Shown here one piece after another: positions 47,104 through 58,814 of a stretch of DNA of 64,000 nucleotides. The position numbers and the translations under genes are program-made. Positions within the stretch are counted from its first letter, which is position 1; each line of letters starts with the position of its first letter. Source of the stretch: a virus (taxonomy: Duplodnaviria > Caudoviricetes); the IMG/VR virus record IMGVR_UViG_3300009155_000035; one strand, written 5' to 3'. The notes under the pieces were generated by a model, which searched no databases, was not told where the DNA came from, and saw only the letters and a program-made list of their open reading frames with translations.

Positions 47104-48382
47104 GTTGTTGTTGGGTATTCTGATCGTGGAACTTCATCAGTAACACATCTTGTAAATTTGGATCCTTGCTGGCCAGTTTTCTAAATTCAATCCACCTTTG
47201 ACCTTGCTTGTGTTGTTGGCAGTGTGTTTTTGCAATTGCATAATTGTCTAAAAACTCTTGAATAATTGATTTTGAAAACTCTTCAGAGAAAAACAAGTCT
47301 CGGTTATGCTTGGTTATTTTGTTAAGTTCCAAGTCAAGAGACTGTTTTTGTTCGGCAGTTAGACTTGTAATGTCTTTCATGACCTTGACAATTTTATGTA
47401 AACGTTTGACCGGGTCAATTTCTAGATCATAAGATTCGTCAATCAAGTCACCAAATGTTTTAAATCCGTATCTGCGCAGATAGTCAAGACTGGCATGTGT
47501 GGCAGCAAGTATAAACGGTTTCCCGCATGCTATTGGACGTAGTATTTTTTCAGTTAGCTGTAATCTTGGATCATCATACAATGTTTCAAGCACAACATCA
47601 AACCAACATTCATTGTAATCTAGACTAGAGTAATCGGCACTGGATGTTGCAAATGATAAGTTTTGTTCTAATACTTCAAGGTCTCTAGTGGAACGAAAGT
47701 CTGTGTTACGGTACTGATGATCATGATAATGTACACCGTTGTCGATTGGATTAAATTTAATTTTGCTTGTGGTGTCAAGCCTGTTCTCTAACACCAAGCT
47801 TGTAAACAACAACCGATACTCTCTAGTACCAGACCAAGCACGATTGTAAATGTTAAAATCATACTGGTAACTGCTGTTGCTACGATCAAGCTTTGAGTCA
47901 TGTTGTGCATATCGATACCAGTCTCGGGCAATTATTGCATGAGCCCACCAGTAGACACCTACTAGACCCACAGCTTCGTACTTTGCGACTTCGGGGCTTC
48001 TAAGCTCGCTGTGTAGCAGTATGTTTTTATCATAGAGTGTGCTATTTCGGTGCATGAACCCAATGTTTAACTGGCTCCAGTTATCAATAACCCTGGGACT
48101 TTTTAAAAATGTATTATTAGCACTTGGTGAGAAACGATCAAACCAGGCCGGCATGTGTTTGGCAACGTACTCGGGGGTATAAAAATCAAAATTAAGAGGT
48201 TCTTGATCATGCACGACTACCAACAACGAATTCATCCATTCTGCCCAAGTTTGAGTAGGCAATTCAACAACATCAATATCTTCAAGATTTCTACTGCCTG
48301 GTGGATTAAAGTGATAAATTATCGTATAGTGGTCTAATTGATCACTAAGATAATCATACATTTGACTAAAAGGAATATTCAT
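47069..48382 (-). CDS. GT10-like putative glycosyltransferase (paralog 1)
   Basis: FDVVLET...LTEKILRPIACGKPFIL...YGFKTFGDLIDESYD; start placed at ATG 48382. Confidence 0.55.
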   Translation of the reverse strand: MNIPFSQMYDYLSDQLDHYTIIYHFNPPGSRNLEDIDVVELPTQTWAEWMNSLLVVVHDQEPLNFDFYTPEYVAKHMPAWFDRFSPSANNTFLKSPRVIDNWSQLNIGFMHRNSTLYDKNILLHSELRSPEVAKYEAVGLVGVYWWAHAIIARDWYRYAQHDSKLDRSNSSYQYDFNIYNRAWSGTREYRLLFTSLVLENRLDTTSKIKFNPIDNGVHYHDHQYRNTDFRSTRDLEVLEQNLSFATSSADYSSLDYNECWFDVVLETLYDDPRLQLTEKILRPIACGKPFILAATHASLDYLRRYGFKTFGDLIDESYDLEIDPVKRLHKIVKVMKDITSLTAEQKQSLDLELNKITKHNRDLFFSEEFSKSIIQEFLDNYAIAKTHCQQHKQGQRWIEFRKLASKDPNLQDVLLMKFHDQNTQQQLRQMLLTCRRK

Positions 48383-49625
48383 GAATAACAATGTAATTGG
48401 TTTCGTTGGACTCGGTAAATTGGGTCTTGATTGCGCCGAAGTTTTCGCCGAGCACTACACTACAGTAGGCTATGATATTTACCCACGCATGAGCGACAGT
48501 GTCAGAGTTTTAGACACCATTGGTGATGTAACTCGCGAGTCCGATTGGATATTCATCGCAGTACCAACACCGCACACAGAAGGCTATGACGGAAGTGTTC
48601 CAAGTAGTCACATGGAACCAAAAGATTTTGGGCATGAAGCAGTGGAATCAGTATTGATTGAAATCAACAAGCATGCCGACAAGCCCAAAAATATTGTTTT
48701 AATTTCTACAGTATTGCCAGGAACCACATCACGATACTTTGAAAAGCTCATTGATAAACAACACAACTTTTTCTACAATCCTTATCTAATTGCCATGGGC
48801 AGTGTAAAGTGGGACATGGTCAACCCAGAAATGGTCATGATTGGTACACGTAACGACAACAAAGAGCTGGCACAACAACTCATTGACATTTACAAACCAC
48901 TGATGAAAAACAATCCACGATATATCACAGGAACGTGGGAAGAGTGTGAAGCTATTAAAATTTTCTACAACACATTCATCAGCGCCAAAGTGGGCTTGGT
49001 TAACATGATCCAAGACTTTGCACTCAAAATTGGCAATATCAATGTTGACGTAGTTACTGACGCATTGGCACAGAGCAACATGCGTATCATGGGACCCAAA
49101 TACATGACTGCTGGCATGGGAGATGCAGGTGCATGTCATCCACGAGACAACATTGCCTTGCGTTGGCTTGCACAAGAGTATGACATTGGTTATGACTTGT
49201 TTGACACCATCATGCATGCTCGCGAAATTCAAGCCAAAAATCTTGCTCTGTTCTTGGTTAACCAAGCCAAGGAACACAACTTGCCAATAGTGATACACGG
49301 TAAGGCATATAAACCAAATGTTCCTTATTGCATTGGTAGCTATAGTACCTTGGTTGGTTACTATGTGAAAGAAGCCGGGCAGGGTGTGGTATATGTTGAC
49401 CCGCTAGCGGACGACCCAACTGAAGTTGTCAGCGACATTAACGGCCCAGCAGTTATTTTGATGGCACACAATCGTACCATCACCTTTGGCTACACCGGAG
49501 AACAAGCATCTGATCCTGATTATTTCCAATTCAAGGCCGGATCTGTCATTGTTGATCCATTCCGTCGAGAATCTGATCGAGTAGGGATGACTGTGATTCA
49601 TTATGGCAACACACGAAATACGTAA
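48381..49625 (+). CDS. ugd: UDP-glucose/GDP-mannose 6-dehydrogenase family
   Basis: GLGKLG, IAVPTP, STVLPGT, EAIKIFYN, GACHPRD, GKAYK. Confidence 0.88.
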   Translation: MNNNVIGFVGLGKLGLDCAEVFAEHYTTVGYDIYPRMSDSVRVLDTIGDVTRESDWIFIAVPTPHTEGYDGSVPSSHMEPKDFGHEAVESVLIEINKHADKPKNIVLISTVLPGTTSRYFEKLIDKQHNFFYNPYLIAMGSVKWDMVNPEMVMIGTRNDNKELAQQLIDIYKPLMKNNPRYITGTWEECEAIKIFYNTFISAKVGLVNMIQDFALKIGNINVDVVTDALAQSNMRIMGPKYMTAGMGDAGACHPRDNIALRWLAQEYDIGYDLFDTIMHAREIQAKNLALFLVNQAKEHNLPIVIHGKAYKPNVPYCIGSYSTLVGYYVKEAGQGVVYVDPLADDPTEVVSDINGPAVILMAHNRTITFGYTGEQASDPDYFQFKAGSVIVDPFRRESDRVGMTVIHYGNTRNT

Positions 49626-50121
49626 GTTAAAAATTAACAAGTTCTGGGATGATGAATTTAAATCTCTTGACTATGTAAACGAAGAGTTCAATGATCTTGA
49701 CAGTGTAAAAAATTGGATTGACATTGGGTATCCCAACAAGTTTACTGGGGACATGTGTGACATGCGCAGTCCCCAACCAAGTTGGAATTCAACTTTTATC
49801 AAATACTTTGAAGAACTTGGCTGGAAAGACATTGGAACTAGTTACTATCGCATGATGCCCGGTACTGTGTTGCCAACACACAGTGATTTGTATATCAAGT
49901 ACATAGATTTGTTTAACTTACATGGCAAAGAAAGTACCATACACAGAGCCATTGTATTTTTAGAAGATTGGAAACCGGGTCATTACTTTGAAGGATGCGG
50001 CAAACCAACAGTTGAATGGGCAGCCGGGGATGGTGTAGTGTGGGCATATGATGCTCCTCATCTGGCCGCCAACATTGGTCTTGAACCTCGATATACATTG
50101 CAAATTACTGGACACATATGA
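49603..50121 (+). CDS. 2OG-Fe(II) oxygenase/cupin-like protein
   Basis: MMPGTVLPTHSD (HxD), PHLAAN, RYTLQITG. Confidence 0.7.
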   Translation: MATHEIRKLKINKFWDDEFKSLDYVNEEFNDLDSVKNWIDIGYPNKFTGDMCDMRSPQPSWNSTFIKYFEELGWKDIGTSYYRMMPGTVLPTHSDLYIKYIDLFNLHGKESTIHRAIVFLEDWKPGHYFEGCGKPTVEWAAGDGVVWAYDAPHLAANIGLEPRYTLQITGHI

Positions 50122-51035
50122 TTTCAAGCTATAACGAATGGGATCGTCTTAAACGAATAGTTGTTGGCTCGGCGACTGATGCAAACTGGCCTGTGTATGA
50201 TCCCGTGTTTGCCAAAGAGGCTGAAAAAACTACTTGGAAAGAATCCCCAGTTCCGCGTGGGCCAGTATCACAATACATAATCGATGAAGCCAACGAAGAT
50301 TTAGATAATCTGGCAAGCACTCTGACAAGCTTGGGAGTAGATGTTGTGCGGCCTGATCCACTTAACTTTCAATCGCATGATGGCATGTACAATTATTGTC
50401 CACGTGACAGACTGCTTGTACATGGATCAACTATAGTTGATCCTGCTATGATGTATCCTTGTAGGGATATGGAATTGCAATGCTATCATGACATTGTGGA
50501 CGAAGCAGAACACTATTACTTTATGCCTAGAAATGAAGGCTTTGTTTTAGATGCAGCCAACGTGTGTCGGTTGGACGATAAGATGTTGTTCCTAGAATCA
50601 GCCAGTGGTAATCGCAAAGCCTACGAATGGTTGTGCGACGTGTTTCCAAATGTTGAAATTGAAATATGCAATTTTTATGCAGGAGTACACATTGACTCAA
50701 CCATTGTGCCCTTGCGCGAAGGGGTGGTCATGCTCAATGCCAGTCGTGTAAATTTTGATACGGTGCCCCGAGTATTTGATGGATGGCACAAAATTTGGGT
50801 AAACGATGTAGTAGCACAAGAGTTTCACAAGTATCCATATGCGTCAAAATGGATAGCAATGAACATGTTGGTAGTTGATCCTCACACAATTATTTGTGAT
50901 CAGCACCAAACTGAATTGATCAAAACACTTAAAAGTTATCGATTTGAAGTTATACCAATGGAATTGCGTCATAGTCGTACCCTGGGCGGTGGATTTCATT
51001 GTGTTACACTAGATTTATGGAGAGAGCATGTTTGA
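50118..51035 (+). CDS. Amidinotransferase (glycine/inosamine-phosphate amidinotransferase family)
   Basis: SYNEWDRLKRIVVG, YCPRD, HIDST, GGGFHCVTLD (Asp-His-Cys triad). Confidence 0.88.
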   Translation: MISSYNEWDRLKRIVVGSATDANWPVYDPVFAKEAEKTTWKESPVPRGPVSQYIIDEANEDLDNLASTLTSLGVDVVRPDPLNFQSHDGMYNYCPRDRLLVHGSTIVDPAMMYPCRDMELQCYHDIVDEAEHYYFMPRNEGFVLDAANVCRLDDKMLFLESASGNRKAYEWLCDVFPNVEIEICNFYAGVHIDSTIVPLREGVVMLNASRVNFDTVPRVFDGWHKIWVNDVVAQEFHKYPYASKWIAMNMLVVDPHTIICDQHQTELIKTLKSYRFEVIPMELRHSRTLGGGFHCVTLDLWREHV

Positions 51036-52655: not shown

Positions 52656-53666
52656 ATGACTCGTATTGGCTTCTGTTGCAAATGGCTTAATGATCCTGCA
52701 GAATGCGGTGGCATGAAAGTCAATGCTGTAGACCGTGAGCTAAACGGCCGATCAACCACAATGCGTTGGTTGCGTGAACATCCGGACGAAGCCGAACAGC
52801 GGCAATGGGACATCATGAATCACAACACTGCGGCAGCGATCAAAATGATCGAACGTGTGGCTACCTTGCCTGCGGGCCGCAGAATGGTTCGTTTGGGCAG
52901 TGAAATGCTACAGGGCTACACTGAACCCAGTTGGATTGACTGGTGGCAACAGCCGGACGTGCAACGACATTTAGAACGTATCTTTGCACCCATTGGCGAA
53001 ACTGCTCGTAGGCTGGATGTTAGATTGAGTTTTCACCCAGGACAGTTCTGTGTTTTGGCCAGTGAGAATCCCGGCATCGTAAATAGAAGTATACAGGAGT
53101 TTGAATATCATGCAGATATGGTTCGCTGGATGGGATACGGCAAGACTTTCCAGGACTTTAAAATTAACGTCCACATCTCGGGTAAACAAGGTCCCGCCGG
53201 GATTCGCTCTGCCCTTCAGCGACTCAGCCCCGAAGCAAGAAACTGCATCACCATCGAAAACGACGAAAACGCCTGGGGAATTGACTCAAGCCTTGAACTT
53301 GCCCGAGACTGTGCCCTCGTGCTTGATCTACACCATCACTGGATCCGTACAGGAGACTACATTCAAGCCTCCGACGATCGAGTTAAAGGCATAATTGATA
53401 GCTGGCGCGGAATAAGACCTGCCTTGCACTACAGTGTCAGTCGGGAAGACTATCTGGTCGGACATGCCCCAGATACATTGCCGGACATGTCTGTATTGTT
53501 GGCTCAGGGCTGTAAAAAGCAAAAACTGCGAGCACACAGCGACTTCTATTGGAATTCGGCAGTGACTGATTGGGCATTGACCTTTGCTGATCAATTTGAC
53601 ATCCAATGCGAAGCAAAAGGCAAGAATCTAGCCAGCGAACAGGTGTATGAACGATATATTTCTTAA
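52656..53666 (+). CDS. uvsE: UV damage endonuclease UvsE/UvdE
   Basis: RLSFHPGQF, NVHISG, ITIEND, DLHHHW, HYS, RAHSD, CEAKGK. Confidence 0.93.
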   Translation: MTRIGFCCKWLNDPAECGGMKVNAVDRELNGRSTTMRWLREHPDEAEQRQWDIMNHNTAAAIKMIERVATLPAGRRMVRLGSEMLQGYTEPSWIDWWQQPDVQRHLERIFAPIGETARRLDVRLSFHPGQFCVLASENPGIVNRSIQEFEYHADMVRWMGYGKTFQDFKINVHISGKQGPAGIRSALQRLSPEARNCITIENDENAWGIDSSLELARDCALVLDLHHHWIRTGDYIQASDDRVKGIIDSWRGIRPALHYSVSREDYLVGHAPDTLPDMSVLLAQGCKKQKLRAHSDFYWNSAVTDWALTFADQFDIQCEAKGKNLASEQVYERYIS

Positions 53667-53934
53667 CACATTTGCATGGATCCAAGATGACTTTAAATCT
53701 AACCGAGTTCGCTTTGTTGTTGAGCTTGTTGCTTGGGCTGTTAGTATTGGTTGCAGTATTACTATGGCACTCACAGTCCCTAATCCTCCGCTTCTCGCTC
53801 TCTATCCTATTTGGATCTCTGGCTGTGCTATGTATGCTTGGGCTAGTTGGACTAGGAAATCTTTTGGTATGTTGGCTAACTATTGTTTGCTGACCACCAT
53901 CGACAGTGTTGGATTAATTCGTATGCTCACCTAA
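53647..53934 (+). CDS. Small multi-pass membrane protein
   Basis: Three hydrophobic segments. Confidence 0.65.
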   Translation: MNDIFLNTFAWIQDDFKSNRVRFVVELVAWAVSIGCSITMALTVPNPPLLALYPIWISGCAMYAWASWTRKSFGMLANYCLLTTIDSVGLIRMLT

Positions 53935-53951
53935 GCACTGCTATAATTGAC

Positions 53952-53959
53952 TATAAATA
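53952..53959 (+). promoter_or_regulatory. T4-late-like promoter TATAAATA
   Basis: Perfect octamer 6 nt before ATG 53966. Confidence 0.65.
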
Positions 53960-53965
53960 GGAACG

Positions 53966-54607
53966 ATGAAAACCATTGCTTTATTTGTACACCAACCAAA
54001 ATGCTCAATTCAAAGTGGTAACGGGATAATACAAGCACTGACTCCATATTACCGTTTTAAAATTTTTACCCGCTACGAAGTTGAGCGGGATTTTTTTGAT
54101 GATGTAGATTGTGTTTGTATTCCAGGTGGTATTGGCGATGCAAGTAGCTTTGAATACTTGCTGAGAGACAACGGCTCGCGTATTCAAGACTTTGTCGGCC
54201 AAGGTGGTGCATACCTGGGAATCTGCATGGGTGCTTATTGGGCTGGTAGTAATTATCTTGACATTCTTCAAGATGTTGATGCCGAACAGTACATGACAAG
54301 ACCCGGAACCGACACACATAGACCACATGCTAAAAACGTCAGTATAACCTGGAATAATCAAGCCATGAAAATGTTTTGGTATGATGGTTGTGCTCTTGTA
54401 GGCAACGAGTCAAAATTTACAACAATAGCTCGATATGTTGGAAACAACGATCCCATGGCCATTGTGCAAAATCGTGTGGGATTAATTGGTTGCCATCCCG
54501 AAAGCACTGCACATTGGTATTCTTCGTATAGTTGGATGCATGGTCAGTATCATCACGGCAAACATCATCAACTGTTGTTGAAGTTTGTCGACGAACTTTT
54601 ATTGTAA
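53966..54607 (+). CDS. Class I glutamine-amidotransferase-like protein (BPL_N-like)
   Basis: IPGGIG, YLGICMGAY (nucleophile Cys), GCHPE. Confidence 0.75.
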   Translation: MKTIALFVHQPKCSIQSGNGIIQALTPYYRFKIFTRYEVERDFFDDVDCVCIPGGIGDASSFEYLLRDNGSRIQDFVGQGGAYLGICMGAYWAGSNYLDILQDVDAEQYMTRPGTDTHRPHAKNVSITWNNQAMKMFWYDGCALVGNESKFTTIARYVGNNDPMAIVQNRVGLIGCHPESTAHWYSSYSWMHGQYHHGKHHQLLLKFVDELLL

Positions 54608-54619
54608 CATAATTTTAAC
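54602..54619 (+). promoter_or_regulatory. Pho-box-like 7-4-7 direct repeat
   Basis: TTGTAAC-ATAA-TTTTAAC versus E. coli-type CTGTCAT-AWAW-CTGTMAY; 21 nt before ATG 54641. Confidence 0.35.
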
Positions 54620-54640
54620 TGTTTTTGTCTTAAATACTAG

Positions 54641-55435
54641 ATGAAGACATACCGCAGTATCTTTGTCAGTGATGTACATCTTGGCACCAAAGATAGTCAG
54701 GCAAGCCGTCTTAACAATTTTCTCAAACACAACACTTGTGATACCCTATACCTAATAGGAGATATCATTGACGCCTGGCGTATACAACAAAACAAGTGGC
54801 GTTGGAAGCAGAGTCACACCAATTTGGTTCGCCGTGTTCTGGGACATGCCAAGCGCGGCACCAGGGTCGTGTATGTTGCTGGTAATCATGATGAATTTTT
54901 AAGACCCATGATTCCTTATGGGTTCAGTTTTGGACTTATTGAAATAACAAATCAAACAACTCATATAGGTGCCGATGGCCGACGTTACTTAGTCACGCAC
55001 GGTGACTTGTTTGATGGCATTACCAGATTGGCACCTTGGATAGCATTTTTAGGAGACAAAGCATATGATATCATTCTTTCGCTTAATAGCAAATTCAATT
55101 GGATACGTCATCGTCTTGGTTTTGGGTACTTTAGTCTTAGTCAGTACCTTAAAAGGCGAGTAAAAAAGGCTGTTGATTTTATCTTTCACTTTGAAAGGAA
55201 TCTAGCAGGCTATTGTAAGAAGCGTGGATTCGATGGTGTAATATGCGGACATATACATCATGCTGAAATAAAAACAATAGACGGTGTCGCATATATGAAC
55301 GACGGAGACTGGGTTGAATCATGCACGGCACTTGTAGAACACTGGGATGGTCGATGGGAAATCGTAACTTGGACCAAGGAGAGTGATGATGTGGGTACTG
55401 ATAATACTGGCAGTTCATATAAACAATTCAGATGA
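54641..55435 (+). CDS. Metallophosphoesterase of the LpxH/PlcP (phospholipase C) group
   Basis: SDVHLG, GDIID.W, GNHD, THGDLFD, LGDKAY, DGVICGHIH, NDGDWVESCTAL.E. Confidence 0.8.
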   Translation: MKTYRSIFVSDVHLGTKDSQASRLNNFLKHNTCDTLYLIGDIIDAWRIQQNKWRWKQSHTNLVRRVLGHAKRGTRVVYVAGNHDEFLRPMIPYGFSFGLIEITNQTTHIGADGRRYLVTHGDLFDGITRLAPWIAFLGDKAYDIILSLNSKFNWIRHRLGFGYFSLSQYLKRRVKKAVDFIFHFERNLAGYCKKRGFDGVICGHIHHAEIKTIDGVAYMNDGDWVESCTALVEHWDGRWEIVTWTKESDDVGTDNTGSSYKQFR

Positions 55436-55562
55436 CGTGCCAGGGCGGGTGGAGCTGACATTCCAGGATCAGCAAACTTGCCAACAGGTTTTAAGTACAA
55501 TCAAGTACAAATTGAAGTTTAATAATTTCAAGGTGGTGGCAGAATGCAAGAAACAAAACTAA
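55386..55562 (+). CDS. Small hypothetical protein (58 aa, signal/TM N-terminus, Cys pair)
   Basis: MMWVLIILAVHINNSDDVPGRVELTFQDQQTCQQVLSTIKYKLKFNNFKVVAECKKQN; fills the gap and overlaps both neighbours. Confidence 0.5.
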   Translation: MMWVLIILAVHINNSDDVPGRVELTFQDQQTCQQVLSTIKYKLKFNNFKVVAECKKQN

Positions 55563-56263
55563 GTGAAAAAATTACCATCGTAGTGCCATGCAAGAATGAG
55601 GAAAACTATATTCATTACTTGTTAGAATCACTAAGACAACAAAATATTGGCAATACCAAGGTGATCATTGCCGACTGCTCTACTGACAATACTAGACAAG
55701 TCATACATGACAACAGTGCAGGATTAAATGTCGAAGTCATTGAAGGCGGCCCGGTTTCTATTGCCAAGAATCGCGGTGCCCGATTAGTCACCACACCCTA
55801 TATCTTGTTCATCGACGCCGATGTACGTTTTTTTAAGAATACTGTGATACAAGATGCTGTAAGTGAGATTGAATCAAAGAATTTAGATCTTGTTGGATTG
55901 AATATTAAATGCTATGACCGAGACTCAAGAGCCGCGCTTGGATTTATGCTTTTTAATACTATAAATCACACACTGAAATTCTTCTCTCCATTTGCTGTAG
56001 GTGCATTCATGTTAACTCGTAGAGATCGCTTTGAAGAATTTGGTGGATTTCCTGAGAAGTTCTCAACATCCGAGGACTACTTCTTGTCAAGAAAGTACAG
56101 CCCTAAAAAGTTTAAGATTGTCCGACATCACTTTGGACAAGATAGTCGTAGATTCAAGAAGATGGGTTACCTTGGTATGGGCAAGTATCTAATAAAGAAT
56201 TTTATCAATCGCAACAATCGAGCATATTGGGACAAGCTAGATTCAACAAAATATTGGAATTAA
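55544..56263 (+). CDS. Glycosyltransferase family 2
   Basis: IVVPCKNEE, IADCSTDNT, LFIDADV, GGF...SED. Confidence 0.88.
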   Translation: MQETKLSEKITIVVPCKNEENYIHYLLESLRQQNIGNTKVIIADCSTDNTRQVIHDNSAGLNVEVIEGGPVSIAKNRGARLVTTPYILFIDADVRFFKNTVIQDAVSEIESKNLDLVGLNIKCYDRDSRAALGFMLFNTINHTLKFFSPFAVGAFMLTRRDRFEEFGGFPEKFSTSEDYFLSRKYSPKKFKIVRHHFGQDSRRFKKMGYLGMGKYLIKNFINRNNRAYWDKLDSTKYWN

Positions 56264-56310
56264 AATTCGGACACAGGATAGCATGTCGCTGGATTTGCGT
56301 AACCAGTAAA

Positions 56311-56333
56311 GTGCCCCTTGCGGGGCATTTTTT
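56311..56333. terminator. Bidirectional-looking intrinsic terminator between convergent genes
   Basis: gtgcccc-ttgc-ggggcat + ttttt. Confidence 0.75.
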
Positions 56334-56646
56334 ATTTTTCATTAGTCTTTTTAGTAGCCCGAGGCTTAGACGATGTCTTTTTAGCAACAGGTGTCTTTTT
56401 AGCAACAGGTTTTTTTTCTGCTGTGATGGCAGGCTTTTCTTCTACCACTGGCTTTTCTTCTACCACTGGCTTTTCTTCTACCACTGGCTTTTCTTCTACC
56501 ACTGGCGTTACTGCCGGCGTAGTTTCAACTACCAACGGTGCTAGTGTTGTGGGCACAGGCGCTTCAACCTTGTAAGGCGCTGGTTCCTGCGTTGCTTCTG
56601 TTTGCACTGGCTTGCCAAACAAGAATTCTTTGATTTTCGTAAACAT
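56332..56646 (-). CDS. Low-complexity Pro/Lys/Glu-rich protein
   Basis: VVEEKP x4, PVAKKT x2, basic tail; AGGAG RBS and TAAATA at 56664-56669. Confidence 0.65.
   Translation of the reverse strand: MFTKIKEFLFGKPVQTEATQEPAPYKVEAPVPTTLAPLVVETTPAVTPVVEEKPVVEEKPVVEEKPVVEEKPAITAEKKPVAKKTPVAKKTSSKPRATKKTNEK
56374..56409. repeat. 2 x 18-bp tandem repeat
   Basis: tgtctttttagcaacagg x2. Confidence 0.9.
56432..56503. repeat. 4 x 18-bp perfect tandem repeat
   Basis: ggcttttcttctaccact x4. Confidence 0.95.
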
Positions 56647-56655
56647 AATGTTCTC

Positions 56656-57690
56656 CTATAAAGTATTTACACAAGATGCAATATCTTTGCACATTTCAAC
56701 CTGCCAATTAAAATTCATGACATGATTGAAATTGTGCTCAACGACCGGGGCAATTTTTTGCTGTATCACAGCAGGATCTTGTGTGTGCAAATATGCAACC
56801 TGGTCCAGCATCATGTTCATTCGTTTTCCTGCATCGGGCTCTAAATCATATGATTCGTCAACAACATCATTGAATGTTTTAAAACCCAGCAGTTTTAGAT
56901 TTTGCAAATAGCGTTGGCCACCTTCAACTAAAAACAGCCTACGAGCCAACATGGGTTTGATTATTTTTTCTGTAAAAAAGCTCCAGTTATTGTTGTTTGT
57001 AGTTTCCGCCACAATTGAATAGTGGGTTTGATTATATATGTCTACTGGTATAATTTGACTCAAACTAACTATCACACCGTTTACTGTTACTTCTTGTACA
57101 GTAAAGTTTATTTCGGTGTTGGGACGATCAATTATTTCAACAGGCCAAGAAAATTCTTCATCATGGTATTTTGTTAAGTCTAAGTCTTGTGCTGTGGGGA
57201 AATATTTTACTATGTTATAGTCATGACTGATATTGTTAAAAATATAATCTCGATAGGGTTTTTTTCTTCCCAATAGCACGTCAAAACACCGCGACTTTTT
57301 AGAATCACTTAACCGAGACAGAATTTCTGGAAATTGCTTGTAAAAGTGTACAGTGCTCCAAAACCAATACGAACAGAACTTGGCCCTGGCGTTTTGCAAT
57401 GAATAATTTAGTTTGCCCCCAAGAAAGAATACCACGTTGTTAAAATCAAACTTTTTGCAAATTTCATCGTCAAATAGTTCAAACATCATGATGATTACCA
57501 ATTTGGATTCGCGTACTGCCGCTGACACAAGCTCATCTGCGGCTTTGTCAAATACCATGAGTTCAATGATGCTGATTTTGTTTGATTGTTGCAACCAAGA
57601 GTCCCAGTCTGTGTGAGTGGTATAGTTAGCTAACCCTGATTCTTTGAGCCACCATTGGCCTTGGTCACCGTGGAGGTAAATGTTATGCAT
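56656..57690 (-). CDS. GT10-like putative glycosyltransferase (paralog 2)
   Basis: YSIVAET...FFTEKIIKPMLARRLF...GFKTFNDVVDESYD; start ATG 57690. Confidence 0.55.
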   Translation of the reverse strand: MHNIYLHGDQGQWWLKESGLANYTTHTDWDSWLQQSNKISIIELMVFDKAADELVSAAVRESKLVIIMMFELFDDEICKKFDFNNVVFFLGGKLNYSLQNARAKFCSYWFWSTVHFYKQFPEILSRLSDSKKSRCFDVLLGRKKPYRDYIFNNISHDYNIVKYFPTAQDLDLTKYHDEEFSWPVEIIDRPNTEINFTVQEVTVNGVIVSLSQIIPVDIYNQTHYSIVAETTNNNNWSFFTEKIIKPMLARRLFLVEGGQRYLQNLKLLGFKTFNDVVDESYDLEPDAGKRMNMMLDQVAYLHTQDPAVIQQKIAPVVEHNFNHVMNFNWQVEMCKDIASCVNTL

Positions 57691-57695
57691 AATGA

Positions 57696-57708
57696 TATTT
57701 ACTAAATA
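57696..57708. promoter_or_regulatory. Back-to-back divergent TAAATA promoters
   Basis: TATTTA-C-TAAATA, 5 and 6 nt from the divergent ATGs. Confidence 0.6.
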
Positions 57709-57714
57709 TAACAT

Positions 57715-58416
57715 ATGAGTGAAATTGTTTACACACTTGTAGTGACACATATTACTATACTGTGTGTGACACTATTCTTGCACCGTGGTCAAGCACATAG
57801 AGCAGTGACCTTCCACCCGGCAATAGAGCATTTTATGCGTTTCTGGTTATGGATGACAACCGGACAAATTACCAAGCAGTGGGTCGCTGTGCATCGCAAG
57901 CATCATAGATTCACTGAACAACCGGGCGACCCGCACAGCCCGCACGTATTTGGATTTTGGAGAGTGCTGTTCAAGGGTGCTTTCTTGTATCATTCGGCAA
58001 CCAAAGATTCTAAAATGGTCGCACAGTACGGGTCGGGTACTCCGGATGATTGGATGGAACGTAATGTCTACACTCCACATAGTCGACTGGGAATTATTCT
58101 GTTATTGTTGATAAATTTACTTTGTTTTTCCTGGTGGGGGTTATTGATATGGGGTATGCAAATGATTTGGATACCATTCTGGGCCGCTGGTGTTGTCAAC
58201 GGTGTTGGTCATTGGTTGGGTTATAGAAACGGCGAAACCCGAGATCACAGTACTAACTTCAGTCCTTGGGGTATTATTATAGGTGGTGAGGAATTACACA
58301 ACAATCATCACTTGGATCCTGCCAGTGCTAAATTAAGCCGCAAGTGGTGGGAATTTGATATTGGGTGGACATGGATTTGTCTACTAGAACGATTTGAACT
58401 AGCCACAGTTCGGTAA
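57715..58416 (+). CDS. Acyl-lipid/acyl-CoA (delta-9-type) fatty acid desaturase
   Basis: His boxes HRGQAH, HRKHH and HNNHH; TM segments; GEELH. Confidence 0.9.
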   Translation: MSEIVYTLVVTHITILCVTLFLHRGQAHRAVTFHPAIEHFMRFWLWMTTGQITKQWVAVHRKHHRFTEQPGDPHSPHVFGFWRVLFKGAFLYHSATKDSKMVAQYGSGTPDDWMERNVYTPHSRLGIILLLLINLLCFSWWGLLIWGMQMIWIPFWAAGVVNGVGHWLGYRNGETRDHSTNFSPWGIIIGGEELHNNHHLDPASAKLSRKWWEFDIGWTWICLLERFELATVR

Positions 58417-58490
58417 AAATTAGTGCCCGTTTACTAATAAAAATTGTGATTTATATTGCAATGCAACATAAATAAGTGTACAATAGAAAT

Positions 58491-58547
58491 ACAAGATGCC
58501 TGTATTGGGTCTTGTTCGTAAACTTGCTTAATAAGGAGAAAACTATG
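58491..58547 (+). promoter_or_regulatory. Second ROSE-like structured leader
   Basis: acaagat-g-cc-tgtatt-gg-gtcttgt hairpin, then AACTTGCTTA-ATAAGGAGAA. Confidence 0.5.
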
Positions 58548-58814
58548 TTTACAGCCGACACACTTATCGATACCGTACAAACCGGTAAAAAAACTTTGGT
58601 GAACACTTTTATCACCAACGAAACAGCCAAAGACGCAATGATCAAATTCATTGACGCTCAGTCAGACTACACCAAAAAGGCCGCCAAAGTTAGCATGGAC
58701 ACATTTACTACACTATCTAGTGAAATGGTCAAAGCCAGTCAAAACGCCATGAAATTTGATTACGTCAAATTTGGTGAAGGCATTATGAAGGCTTACACCG
58801 CCAAAGCCAATTAA
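58545..58814 (+). CDS. Small all-helical amphipathic protein (phasin-like, tentative)
   Basis: 89 aa from ATG 58545 with AAGGAG RBS; Ala/Thr/Lys-rich amphipathic helices. Confidence 0.4.
   Translation: MFTADTLIDTVQTGKKTLVNTFITNETAKDAMIKFIDAQSDYTKKAAKVSMDTFTTLSSEMVKASQNAMKFDYVKFGEGIMKAYTAKAN

What the first reader, a model, noticed from the sequence alone, without database searches (positions are those of the whole stretch)
54641..56263. Phage-encoded phospholipid-to-glycolipid remodelling cassette (PlcP-like + GT2)
Seen: a full metallophosphoesterase whose distinctive segments (GDIID.W, LGDKAY, DGVICGHIHH, GDWVESCTAL.E) match my recollection of PlcP, followed by a small membrane/secreted peptide, a GT2 and a terminator. 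Established: PlcP (often annotated LpxH-like) releases diacylglycerol from phospholipids under P starvation, and partner glycosyltransferases make P-free glycolipids. Inference: the phage mines host membrane phosphate for DNA synthesis while back-filling the membrane. Caveat: the canonical partner Agt is GT4, here it is GT2.
Basis: partly seen in the sequence, partly recalled or inferred. Interest (0 to 1): 0.8.

Follow-up and report, generated by a model that had tools for sequence, protein, structure and literature searches.

The report
Phage phosphate-starvation membrane-lipid swap module
A very large freshwater phage carries, behind a phosphate-starvation switch, a bacterial-type enzyme that cuts the phosphate head off membrane lipids, followed by a small conserved protein of unknown role and a sugar-adding enzyme of a different family from the one bacteria pair with it. 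The phage can therefore probably mine its host's membrane for phosphorus.

Summary

- **Phosphoesterase (54641-55435):** it is a PlcP-family phospholipase C, not LpxH. It scores far below the LpxH cut-offs and carries GNHD rather than LpxH's GNRD. In a tree it nests with Pseudomonas PA3219-type proteins. Bacteria that have a homologue also have a separate true LpxH.
- **Promoter:** a Pho-box-like repeat (54602-54619) plus a TAAATA box precedes the gene. In related phages the same composite site precedes this gene in 45 of 86 loci and pstS in 15 of 15.
- **Small peptide (55389-55562), correction 1:** it is a real gene, conserved in about 60 of 86 loci and under purifying selection in the +1 frame. 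It is predicted to be a soluble beta-beta-alpha-beta protein (pLDDT 93), not a membrane or secreted peptide.
- **GT2 (55544-56263), correction 2:** it occupies exactly the slot that a GT4 Agt homologue holds in sister phages (66 GT2, 19 GT4, none without a glycosyltransferase). GT2 relatives at only 40-46% identity in five other phage backgrounds again abut PlcP-type genes. A diacylglycerol acceptor is therefore well supported by genomic context but not demonstrated.

This scan has already found the GT4 version of the module in other phage genomes. The GT2 partner and the small gene are what this locus adds. No paper in the library searched describes phage-encoded PlcP.

The parts
54602..54619 (+). 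Pho-box-like direct repeat, TTGTAAC-ATAA-TTTTAAC, with an 11-bp period. It lies where a -35 element would be.
   Evidence: It is the only YTGTMAY-N4-YTGTMAY site (one mismatch allowed) followed by TAAATA on the whole 92.7 kb contig. The same architecture lies upstream of the homologous gene in 45 of 86 related loci and upstream of pstS in 15 of 15.
54631..54636 (+). TAAATA box, -10-like, 11 nt after the repeat and 4 nt before the ATG.
   Evidence: The fixed 11-nt spacing from the repeat is seen in nearly all related loci.
54641..55435 (+). PlcP-family metallophosphoesterase (predicted phospholipase C), 264 aa.
   Evidence: Pfam Metallophos. It scores 45 and 33 bits against the LpxH models, whose cut-offs are 134 and 190. 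The tree places it in the PlcP-like clade, far from true LpxH. It has GNHD, not GNRD. It is 51-60% identical to proteobacterial homologues that sit in plcP-agt operons.
55436..55521 (+). Unconstrained continuation of the phosphoesterase frame after the in-frame TGA. Relatives read through this stretch to varying lengths.
   Evidence: The DNA alignment has no indels, and TGA here replaces GGA in relatives. Stops in this frame fall anywhere from codon 261 to 293 across loci. The synonymous fraction in this frame is 0.07.
55389..55562 (+). Conserved small gene, 57 aa (58 aa if it starts at 55386). It lies in the +1 frame, overlapping the 3' end of the phosphoesterase gene and the first 19 nt of the GT2 gene. 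Predicted to be a soluble beta-beta-alpha-beta protein.
   Evidence: It is intact in about 58 of 86 loci. Pairwise amino-acid identity is 61.5% in this frame against 35% in the other frames. The synonymous fraction is 0.625 against 0.07. AlphaFold2 gives pLDDT 92.8. There is no significant fold match, and no Pfam, NCBIfam or PHROG hit.
55544..56263 (+). GT2 (GT-A fold) glycosyltransferase, 239 aa. It has no membrane-spanning segment and a basic, amphipathic C-terminus. Predicted diacylglycerol glycosyltransferase.
   Evidence: PF00535 at 76 bits and PF13506 (GT21) at 30.8 bits, above its cut-off. The AlphaFold2 model has pLDDT 96. Fold matches are mostly enzymes with lipid or lipid-linked acceptors. 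It occupies the slot held by the GT4 Agt homologue in sister phages. Distant relatives also abut PlcP-type genes.
56308..56331 (+). Intrinsic terminator hairpin closing the cassette. It lies between convergent genes.
   Evidence: The stem has 10 pairs, 5 of them G-C, with a loop of 4 followed by a T-run. It is the best terminator-like site in the scanned region 53600-58600.

Best explanation
This is a three-gene auxiliary metabolic cassette of a freshwater jumbo phage. The genome is about 340 kb, judging from relatives and the CheckV estimate.

**Proposed mechanism**
1. Under phosphate limitation, the host's PhoB binds the Pho-box-like repeat that takes the place of a -35 element. It then drives transcription from the TAAATA box (inferred).
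2. The PlcP-family enzyme cleaves host glycerophospholipids into diacylglycerol and a phosphoalcohol. The family assignment is shown here. The activity is inferred from characterised bacterial PlcP.
3. The GT2 transfers a sugar from a UDP-sugar onto the diacylglycerol at the inner face of the membrane. This makes a phosphorus-free glycolipid that keeps the membrane intact (inferred from conserved gene linkage and from slot-sharing with the GT4 Agt homologue).
4. The small soluble protein, translationally coupled between the two enzymes, is an accessory factor of unknown role.

The net effect would be to release membrane-bound phosphorus for phage replication without lysing the cell early.
For: **Family assignment of the phosphoesterase**
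- LpxH models score 45 and 33 bits against cut-offs of 134 and 190.
- Five of five bacterial genomes holding a homologue also hold a true LpxH at 232-299 bits, while the homologue scores 37-41 bits.
- In the tree, LpxH is split off by a very long branch with full support. The phage clade (98% support) nests among PlcP-like proteins that include Pseudomonas PA3219-type orthologues.
- GNHD occurs in 60 of 61 PlcP-like proteins and GNRD in 4 of 4 LpxH.
- PA3219 is experimentally PlcP and forms an operon with the glycosyltransferase Agt1 (PMC8528852).
- The P. aeruginosa-lineage loci found here show the same arrangement, with a GT4 45 nt downstream.

**Operon logic**
- About 50 of 80 bacterial homologues have a GT4 immediately downstream.
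- In the phage clade, 85 of 85 evaluable loci have a glycosyltransferase after the PlcP gene: 66 GT2 and 19 GT4, never both. The partner type changes at least about 11 times on the PlcP tree.
- GT2 relatives at 40-46% identity in five other phage-like backgrounds again sit next to or overlap a PlcP-type gene.

**Regulation**
- 112 Pho-box hits occur in 982 kb, and 68 of them lie within 80 nt upstream of the PlcP gene or pstS. My own arithmetic gives about 0.06 expected by chance in those upstream windows.
- The neighbouring gene in relatives is a true PstS, scoring 403 bits against a cut-off of 339.
- In Pelagibacter phage Mosig the homologue lies divergently next to pstS.

**GT2 properties**
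- It has a GT-A fold, a DAD motif and a conserved RRF motif.
- It has no membrane-spanning segment, and its C-terminal helices are amphipathic with net charge +7.
- Its structural neighbours include the cyanobacterial monoglucosyl-diacylglycerol synthase, at TM 0.70.
Against: - No enzyme activity was measured.
- No characterised PlcP partner is a GT2, and none of 110 bacterial loci has this GT2 next to plcP.
- The fold search does not single out diacylglycerol as the acceptor.
- One bacterial GT2 relative sits beside a lipid A-type acyltransferase, and another stands alone.
- This window's Pho box has one mismatch in its second half.
- This contig fragment has no pstS.
- No phosphatase that would release phosphate from the phosphoalcohol was found nearby.
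- No RNA data set holding the gene could be listed.
- I could not compare the protein directly with the sequences of the experimentally studied PlcP proteins. The anchor is Pseudomonas orthologues from species close to P. aeruginosa.
Confidence: 0.65

Rival explanations
1. The PlcP assignment is right, but the GT2 acts on another acceptor, such as LPS or lipid A, a polyprenyl phosphate, a wall polymer or phage DNA. On this view its position next to the PlcP gene reflects clustering of accessory genes rather than a shared pathway.
For: - GT2 is not the family of any characterised PlcP partner (PMC8528852, PMC13691135).
- No bacterial plcP locus examined has this GT2.
- Fold matches cover many acceptor types.
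- A bacterial relative lies beside a lipid A-type acyltransferase.
Against: - The two genes overlap or abut in five additional phage backgrounds at only 40-46% GT2 identity.
- The GT2 and the Agt-like GT4 are mutually exclusive at the same slot in 85 of 85 loci, with repeated swaps.
- No locus lacks a glycosyltransferase.
Confidence: 0.17
2. The enzymes work as proposed, but the purpose is not phosphorus supply. The changed membrane lipids might instead block superinfection, alter receptors or envelope properties, or prepare the cell for lysis.
For: - Lipid-remodelled bacteria differ in their susceptibility to phages and grazers (PMC9457565 and PMC9938194; abstracts only were read).
- A fatty-acid desaturase gene lies 1.5 kb downstream, which suggests broader tuning of the membrane.
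Against: - The Pho-box promoter is shared with pstS, which ties expression to phosphate limitation.
- pstS lies within the fetched flank, usually directly adjacent, in 15 of 86 loci.
Confidence: 0.1
3. The phosphoesterase is an LpxH-type UDP-2,3-diacylglucosamine hydrolase. Together with the GT2 it would modify lipid A or LPS. This is how databases currently annotate such genes.
For: - Source annotations call the relatives LpxH.
- The best matches among solved structures are LpxH, at E = 1e-4.
Against: - The protein scores far below both LpxH cut-offs.
- It is a separate paralogue in genomes that also hold a true LpxH.
- A long, fully supported branch separates it from LpxH in the tree.
- It has GNHD where LpxH has GNRD.
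- Its context is phosphate-related.
Confidence: 0.04

Closest known systems
PlcP-Agt lipid-renovation operon of Proteobacteria: P. aeruginosa PA3219/PA3218, B. cenocepacia BCAL2364-2366, Phaeobacter sp. MED193, S. meliloti, SAR11 HTCC7211
   Same: - The first gene is an LpxH-like metallophosphoesterase of the same family, 51-60% identical to proteobacterial members.
- A glycosyltransferase gene follows immediately.
- A Pho box lies in the promoter.
- Sister phages even carry the GT4 Agt homologue, 37-47% identical to the bacterial ones.
   Different: - The module is carried by a phage.
- The glycosyltransferase is a 239-aa GT-A fold GT2 rather than a GT-B fold GT4.
- A conserved 57-aa gene lies between the two genes and overlaps both.
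- There is no diacylglycerol kinase gene.
Phage PlcP-Agt (GT4) modules noted earlier in this scan (for example e1-5338980 and e1-2904318)
   Same: - The phage type is the same or related: large lake phages.
- The PlcP family is the same.
- The Pho-box logic and the proposed role are the same.
   Different: - Here the partner is the GT2, which is the majority form in this clade (66 of 85 loci).
- The small overlapping gene is shown to be a real gene under selection.
LpxH (UDP-2,3-diacylglucosamine diphosphatase)
   Same: - Both have the calcineurin-like metallophosphoesterase fold with a lipid-binding insertion.
- Databases give both the same name.
   Different: - Identity is about 20-26%.
- The protein scores below the LpxH family cut-offs.
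- It has GNHD rather than GNRD.
- It is a distinct paralogue that co-exists with true LpxH.
GT2-family diacylglycerol glycosyltransferases, such as the cyanobacterial beta-monoglucosyl-diacylglycerol synthase
   Same: - Both have the GT-A fold.
- The structural match has TM 0.70 over residues 1-233.
- The proposed acceptor, diacylglycerol, is the same.
   Different: - Sequence identity is only 18-19%.
- The cyanobacterial enzyme is twice as long and has membrane segments.
- Many other GT2 enzymes match equally well.
Cyanophage and pelagiphage phosphate-stress genes (pstS, phoA) under host PhoB control
   Same: - A host-type Pho box precedes phage-borne phosphate-acquisition genes.
- pstS is physically linked to the cassette in relatives and in Pelagibacter phage Mosig.
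   Different: The phosphorus source here would be the host's own membrane rather than the surrounding water.

Membership tests
PlcP (LpxH-like, Pho-regulated phospholipase C) | Complete metallophosphoesterase catalytic motifs | tested here: met
   DVH, GD, GNHD, HGD and GHIH are present. They are invariant in alignment A1.
PlcP (LpxH-like, Pho-regulated phospholipase C) | Groups with PlcP-type proteins and apart from LpxH in a phylogeny | tested here: met
   In the tree of 63 rows, LpxH is split off with full support on a very long branch, and the phage clade lies inside the PlcP-like group. The named anchors are Pseudomonas orthologues.
PlcP (LpxH-like, Pho-regulated phospholipase C) | Direct similarity to an experimentally studied PlcP (SMc00171, MED193, PA3219, BCAL2364) | not testable with these tools
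   Those sequences could not be fetched by name. The indirect anchor is 53-56% identity to the orthologues in the P. nitroreducens and P. knackmussii groups, which carry the same downstream GT4. The paper reports 46-47% identity among characterised members (PMC8528852).
PlcP (LpxH-like, Pho-regulated phospholipase C) | Glycolipid glycosyltransferase gene immediately downstream | tested here: met
   A glycosyltransferase follows in 85 of 85 loci. In this window it is a GT2, not the canonical GT4.
PlcP (LpxH-like, Pho-regulated phospholipase C) | Pho box in the promoter | tested here: met
   The site is at 54602-54619, with one mismatch in its second half. The motif is shared with pstS promoters in relatives.
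PlcP (LpxH-like, Pho-regulated phospholipase C) | Hydrolyses glycerophospholipids to diacylglycerol | not testable with these tools
   This needs an enzyme assay or lipidomics.
LpxH | Reaches the curated score of the LpxH equivalog models | tested here: not met
   45.1 bits against a cut-off of 134, and 33.5 bits against 190.35.
LpxH | GNRD motif | tested here: not met
   The window protein has GNHD. Four of four true LpxH sequences and the solved LpxH structures have GNRD.
Agt (GT4 glycolipid glycosyltransferase) | GT-B fold with GT4 and Glycos_transf_1 domains | tested here: not met
   The window protein is GT-A fold GT2. The GT4 type is present in sister phages.
GT2 glycosyltransferases | PF00535 above its cut-off, GT-A fold and a DxD motif | tested here: met
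   76.3 bits against a cut-off of 23.3. The model has pLDDT 96 and a GT-A fold. D91 and D93 are invariant.
GT2/GT21 diacylglycerol glycosyltransferases | Specific relationship to a characterised diacylglycerol-glycosylating GT2 or GT21 | tested here: inconclusive
   The GT21 Pfam model scores 30.8 bits, above its cut-off of 21.7. The structural match to the monoglucosyl-diacylglycerol synthase has TM 0.70 at 18-19% identity, no better than matches to other GT2 enzymes.
TIGR04283 glycosyltransferases | Reaches the curated score | tested here: not met
   64.7 bits against a cut-off of 182.

The most novel reading that the evidence does not exclude
Phages have recruited a compact, soluble GT2 as a new class of diacylglycerol glycosyltransferase. 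It replaces the bacterial GT4 Agt in a PhoB-controlled lipid-renovation module. The 57-aa beta-beta-alpha-beta protein encoded across the gene junction is a new accessory or regulatory subunit of that module. Together these would be a phage-specific version of the pathway, widespread in lake jumbo phages and present in several other phage lineages.
Probability: 0.45. Interest if true: 0.75.

Novelty: new variant of a known kind. Interest (0 to 1): 0.6.

Why it matters
Phosphorus often limits growth in lakes and oceans, and phage DNA is rich in phosphorus. If the model holds, a phage module that strips phosphate from host membrane lipids and back-fills with glycolipid would be a route of viral nutrient acquisition not described in the literature searched. 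It would be controlled by the host's own starvation sensor.

The module is common. At least 596 IMG/VR contigs carry close relatives, and each gene has thousands of metagenomic proteins at 85-89% identity. Virus surveys currently file the gene under LPS biosynthesis as "lpxH", so its ecological meaning is being missed.

The GT2 partner would also widen the known enzymology of bacterial glycolipid synthesis. The small overlapping gene is a clean example of a real gene hidden in the tail of another reading frame.

Tried and rejected
- **Frameshift idea for the small ORF:** rejected. The DNA alignment has no indels. The phosphoesterase simply has an in-frame TGA, and the +1 frame is the one under selection.
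- **Membrane or secreted small peptide:** rejected. The model shows a beta-strand at the N-terminus.
- **Homology between the small ORF and the small ORF after the Mosig homologue:** none found.
- **Fold search for the small protein:** nothing significant. There are only weak ferredoxin-like resemblances at E > 0.1.
- **Strict E. coli Pho-box consensus scan of the window:** not above chance, with 9 hits against 8.1 expected. The degenerate YTGTMAY repeat derived from relatives was the informative pattern.
- **Naming reference genomes:** control genomes gave no loci, and the order-level search withheld names. This was solved through cluster names.
- **L174 row in the tree:** I picked the wrong reading frame for it. 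It must be ignored.
- **UDP-glucose dehydrogenase as part of the cassette:** not supported as a tight link. It lies within 6 kb in only 3 of 86 loci.
- **pstS on this contig:** not found. The contig is only about 27% of the genome.
- **Expression evidence:** no RNA run could be listed.
- **Near-identical phage in the GenBank phage collection:** none.
Full report
**What is there.** The window is part of a 92.7 kb IMG/VR virus record that CheckV rates at about 27% complete. It encodes ribonucleotide reductase, DnaB-like and other helicases, an ATP-dependent DNA ligase and a UDP-glucose dehydrogenase. The DNA comes from a freshwater metagenome.
- a 264-aa metallophosphoesterase at 54641-55435;
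- a small ORF ending at 55562;
- a 239-aa GT2 at 55544-56263.

A strong hairpin terminator follows at 56308-56331.

**PlcP or LpxH.** The phosphoesterase hits the two LpxH equivalog models at 45 and 33 bits, against cut-offs of 134 and 190. It matches solved LpxH structures only at E = 1e-4.
- Its closest cellular relatives (51-60% identity) are proteobacterial proteins. About 50 of 80 of these have a GT4 glycosyltransferase immediately downstream.
- In five of five such genomes a separate, true LpxH is present at 232-299 bits, while the homologue of our protein scores 37-41 bits.
- 101 of 301 genomes sampled from one gammaproteobacterial order hold a single homologue.
- Three of these were identified by cluster names as Pseudomonas of the nitroreducens/citronellolis, knackmussii and putida groups. 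The P. aeruginosa-lineage ones have a GT4 45 nt downstream. That matches the published plcP-agt1 operon PA3219-PA3218 (PMC8528852).
- In a maximum-likelihood tree, four true LpxH sequences are split from everything else with full support on a very long branch. The phage clade (98% support) lies inside the PlcP-like group, as sister to a Hyphomonadaceae-plus-Mosig-phage group. One row, L174, was my own wrong-frame error and should be ignored.

I could not fetch the experimentally studied PlcP sequences themselves, so the anchor is one step removed.

**A phosphate switch.** Aligning the 90 nt upstream of the gene across related phage loci shows two direct repeats of (C/T)TGT(A/C)A(C/T) with an 11-bp period, whatever gene lies further upstream. 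A TAAATA box follows 11 nt later, a few bases before the ATG. Several loci carry the textbook TTGTCAT-N4-TTGTCAC.
- Across 982 kb of related phage DNA the motif (one mismatch allowed) occurs 112 times. Of these, 45 hits precede the phosphoesterase gene and 23 precede pstS.
- Every one of the 15 loci that has pstS has the motif in front of it.
- By my own arithmetic, chance would give about 15 hits in all and about 0.06 in those upstream windows.
- The neighbouring gene in relatives is a genuine PstS, at 403 bits against a cut-off of 339.
- On our contig the only such composite site is 54602-54619 plus TAAATA at 54631-54636. Its second half-site has one mismatch.
- In Pelagibacter phage Mosig the 47%-identical homologue lies divergently next to pstS.

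This is the layout of a PhoB-dependent promoter. PhoB binding itself is inferred.

**The glycosyltransferase.** At least 596 IMG/VR contigs, some of 330-525 kb, carry close relatives of the phosphoesterase. Both genes have thousands of metagenomic relatives at 85-89% identity.
- In 85 of 85 evaluable loci a glycosyltransferase follows the PlcP gene: the GT2 in 66 and a GT4 in 19, never both. The partner type changes at least about 11 times on the PlcP tree. That count rests on a tree of very similar sequences and is approximate.
- The phage GT4 is 37-47% identical to the GT4 found downstream of bacterial plcP.
- An exhaustive search found GT2 relatives at only 40-46% identity. In five of the seven clusters with usable context, from different phage-like backgrounds, a 228-242 aa metallophosphoesterase gene abuts or overlaps the GT2 gene. 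Those phosphoesterases are again PlcP-type: 37-46% identical to ours and to the Pseudomonas protein, with GNHD.
- One bacterial relative lies next to a lipid A-type acyltransferase, and one stands alone.
- No bacterial plcP locus examined has this GT2.
- The AlphaFold2 model (pLDDT 96) is a GT-A fold with a DAD motif and a conserved RRF motif. It has no membrane-spanning segment, and its C-terminal helices are basic and amphipathic.
- Fold matches are dominated by enzymes with lipid or lipid-linked acceptors. They include the cyanobacterial monoglucosyl-diacylglycerol synthase at TM 0.70, but they do not single out an acceptor.

The case for diacylglycerol therefore rests on gene linkage and on sharing a slot with Agt. 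It does not rest on homology to a known diacylglycerol enzyme.

**The small gene.** The DNA alignment with relatives has no indels. Our phosphoesterase stops at an in-frame TGA where others read GGA. Across loci that frame stops anywhere between codons 261 and 293, and versions of 252-254 aa lack the region altogether.
- The +1 frame is open in about 58 of 86 loci. It encodes a conserved 56-58 aa protein with two invariant cysteines and an LKF-xx-FK motif.
- Over the same nucleotides, pairwise amino-acid identity is 61.5% in this frame against 35% in the other two. The synonymous fraction of single-base codon differences is 0.625 against 0.07 and 0.22. Variation peaks at the third codon position.
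- The gene occurs with both the GT2 and the GT4 partner.
- AlphaFold2 predicts a beta-beta-alpha-beta fold with pLDDT 92.8, so the hydrophobic N-terminus is a strand, not a signal peptide.
- No fold or family match gives it a function. It is unrelated to the small ORF in Mosig.

**Literature and earlier notes.** In the library searched, no paper pairs plcP with auxiliary metabolic genes. None of the 20 listed of the 25 papers that mention both PlcP and phage concerns a phage-encoded enzyme. A Lake Baikal viral metatranscriptome lists "lpxH" as an LPS-biosynthesis gene of viruses (PMC9611531). The pelagimyophage survey does not mention the gene. This scan has already noted the module in at least 25 other genomes, and two follow-ups supported the GT4 version. 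The present locus adds the GT2 partner and the small gene.

**Verdict.** The PlcP reading passes every test I could run, and the phosphate link is strong. The GT2's role is well supported by context but unproven. The "membrane peptide" reading is wrong. This is a new variant of a known bacterial system, carried by an abundant group of lake phages.

Noticed in passing
window 57715-58416 (+): A 233-aa fatty-acid desaturase lies 1.5 kb downstream of the cassette. It scores 395 bits against the DesA-family model (cut-off 400) and covers only the first 240 of 385 profile positions. By my reading of the translation, three His boxes are present. Homologues lie within 6 kb of the cassette in 12 of 86 related loci, so it may be a second membrane-lipid gene.
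   Followed up: partly
L010:7628-8366 and L049:3314-4047: In relatives, a Pho-box plus TAAATA promoter directly after the GT2 drives a 218-232 aa Ala/Val/Glu-rich protein with no family match. It may be a further member of the phage's phosphate-responsive gene set.
   Followed up: partly
window 53966-54607 (+): A 213-aa protein with a weak match to the biotin-protein-ligase N-terminal / class I glutamine amidotransferase fold lies just upstream. Homologues occur near the cassette in about 22 related loci, in varying positions and orientations.
   Followed up: no
L005:3859-9236: A related 378 kb contig carries curli-secretion genes (CsgF, CsgG and a curlin-repeat protein) just upstream of its PlcP-GT4 pair. 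A partial curli operon has been reported in marine pelagimyophages (PMC7029224).
   Followed up: no
L090 (5.6 kb contig of a Lake Mendota 'Bacteroidia' MAG): This contig carries the phage-type PlcP gene (68% identical), the small gene and a GT4, and it groups with the phage clade in the tree. It is probably a phage contig binned into a bacterial MAG.
   Followed up: partly
L160:1059-4729: An Acetobacterales MAG has two plcP-GT4 pairs in tandem.
   Followed up: no
L217:2006-4425: In one divergent phage-like contig the order is reversed, with the GT2 followed by a PlcP-type gene. A second, unrelated metallophosphoesterase lies upstream of the GT2.
   Followed up: partly
window 48381-51035 (+): A UDP-glucose dehydrogenase heads a run of overlapping genes 5 kb upstream. 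It could supply UDP-glucuronate for glucuronosyl-diacylglycerol, but it lies within 6 kb of the cassette in only 3 of 86 loci.
   Followed up: partly
window 52656-53666 (+): A UvdE-type UV-damage endonuclease gene (107 bits). It is also present upstream of the cassette in several relatives.
   Followed up: no
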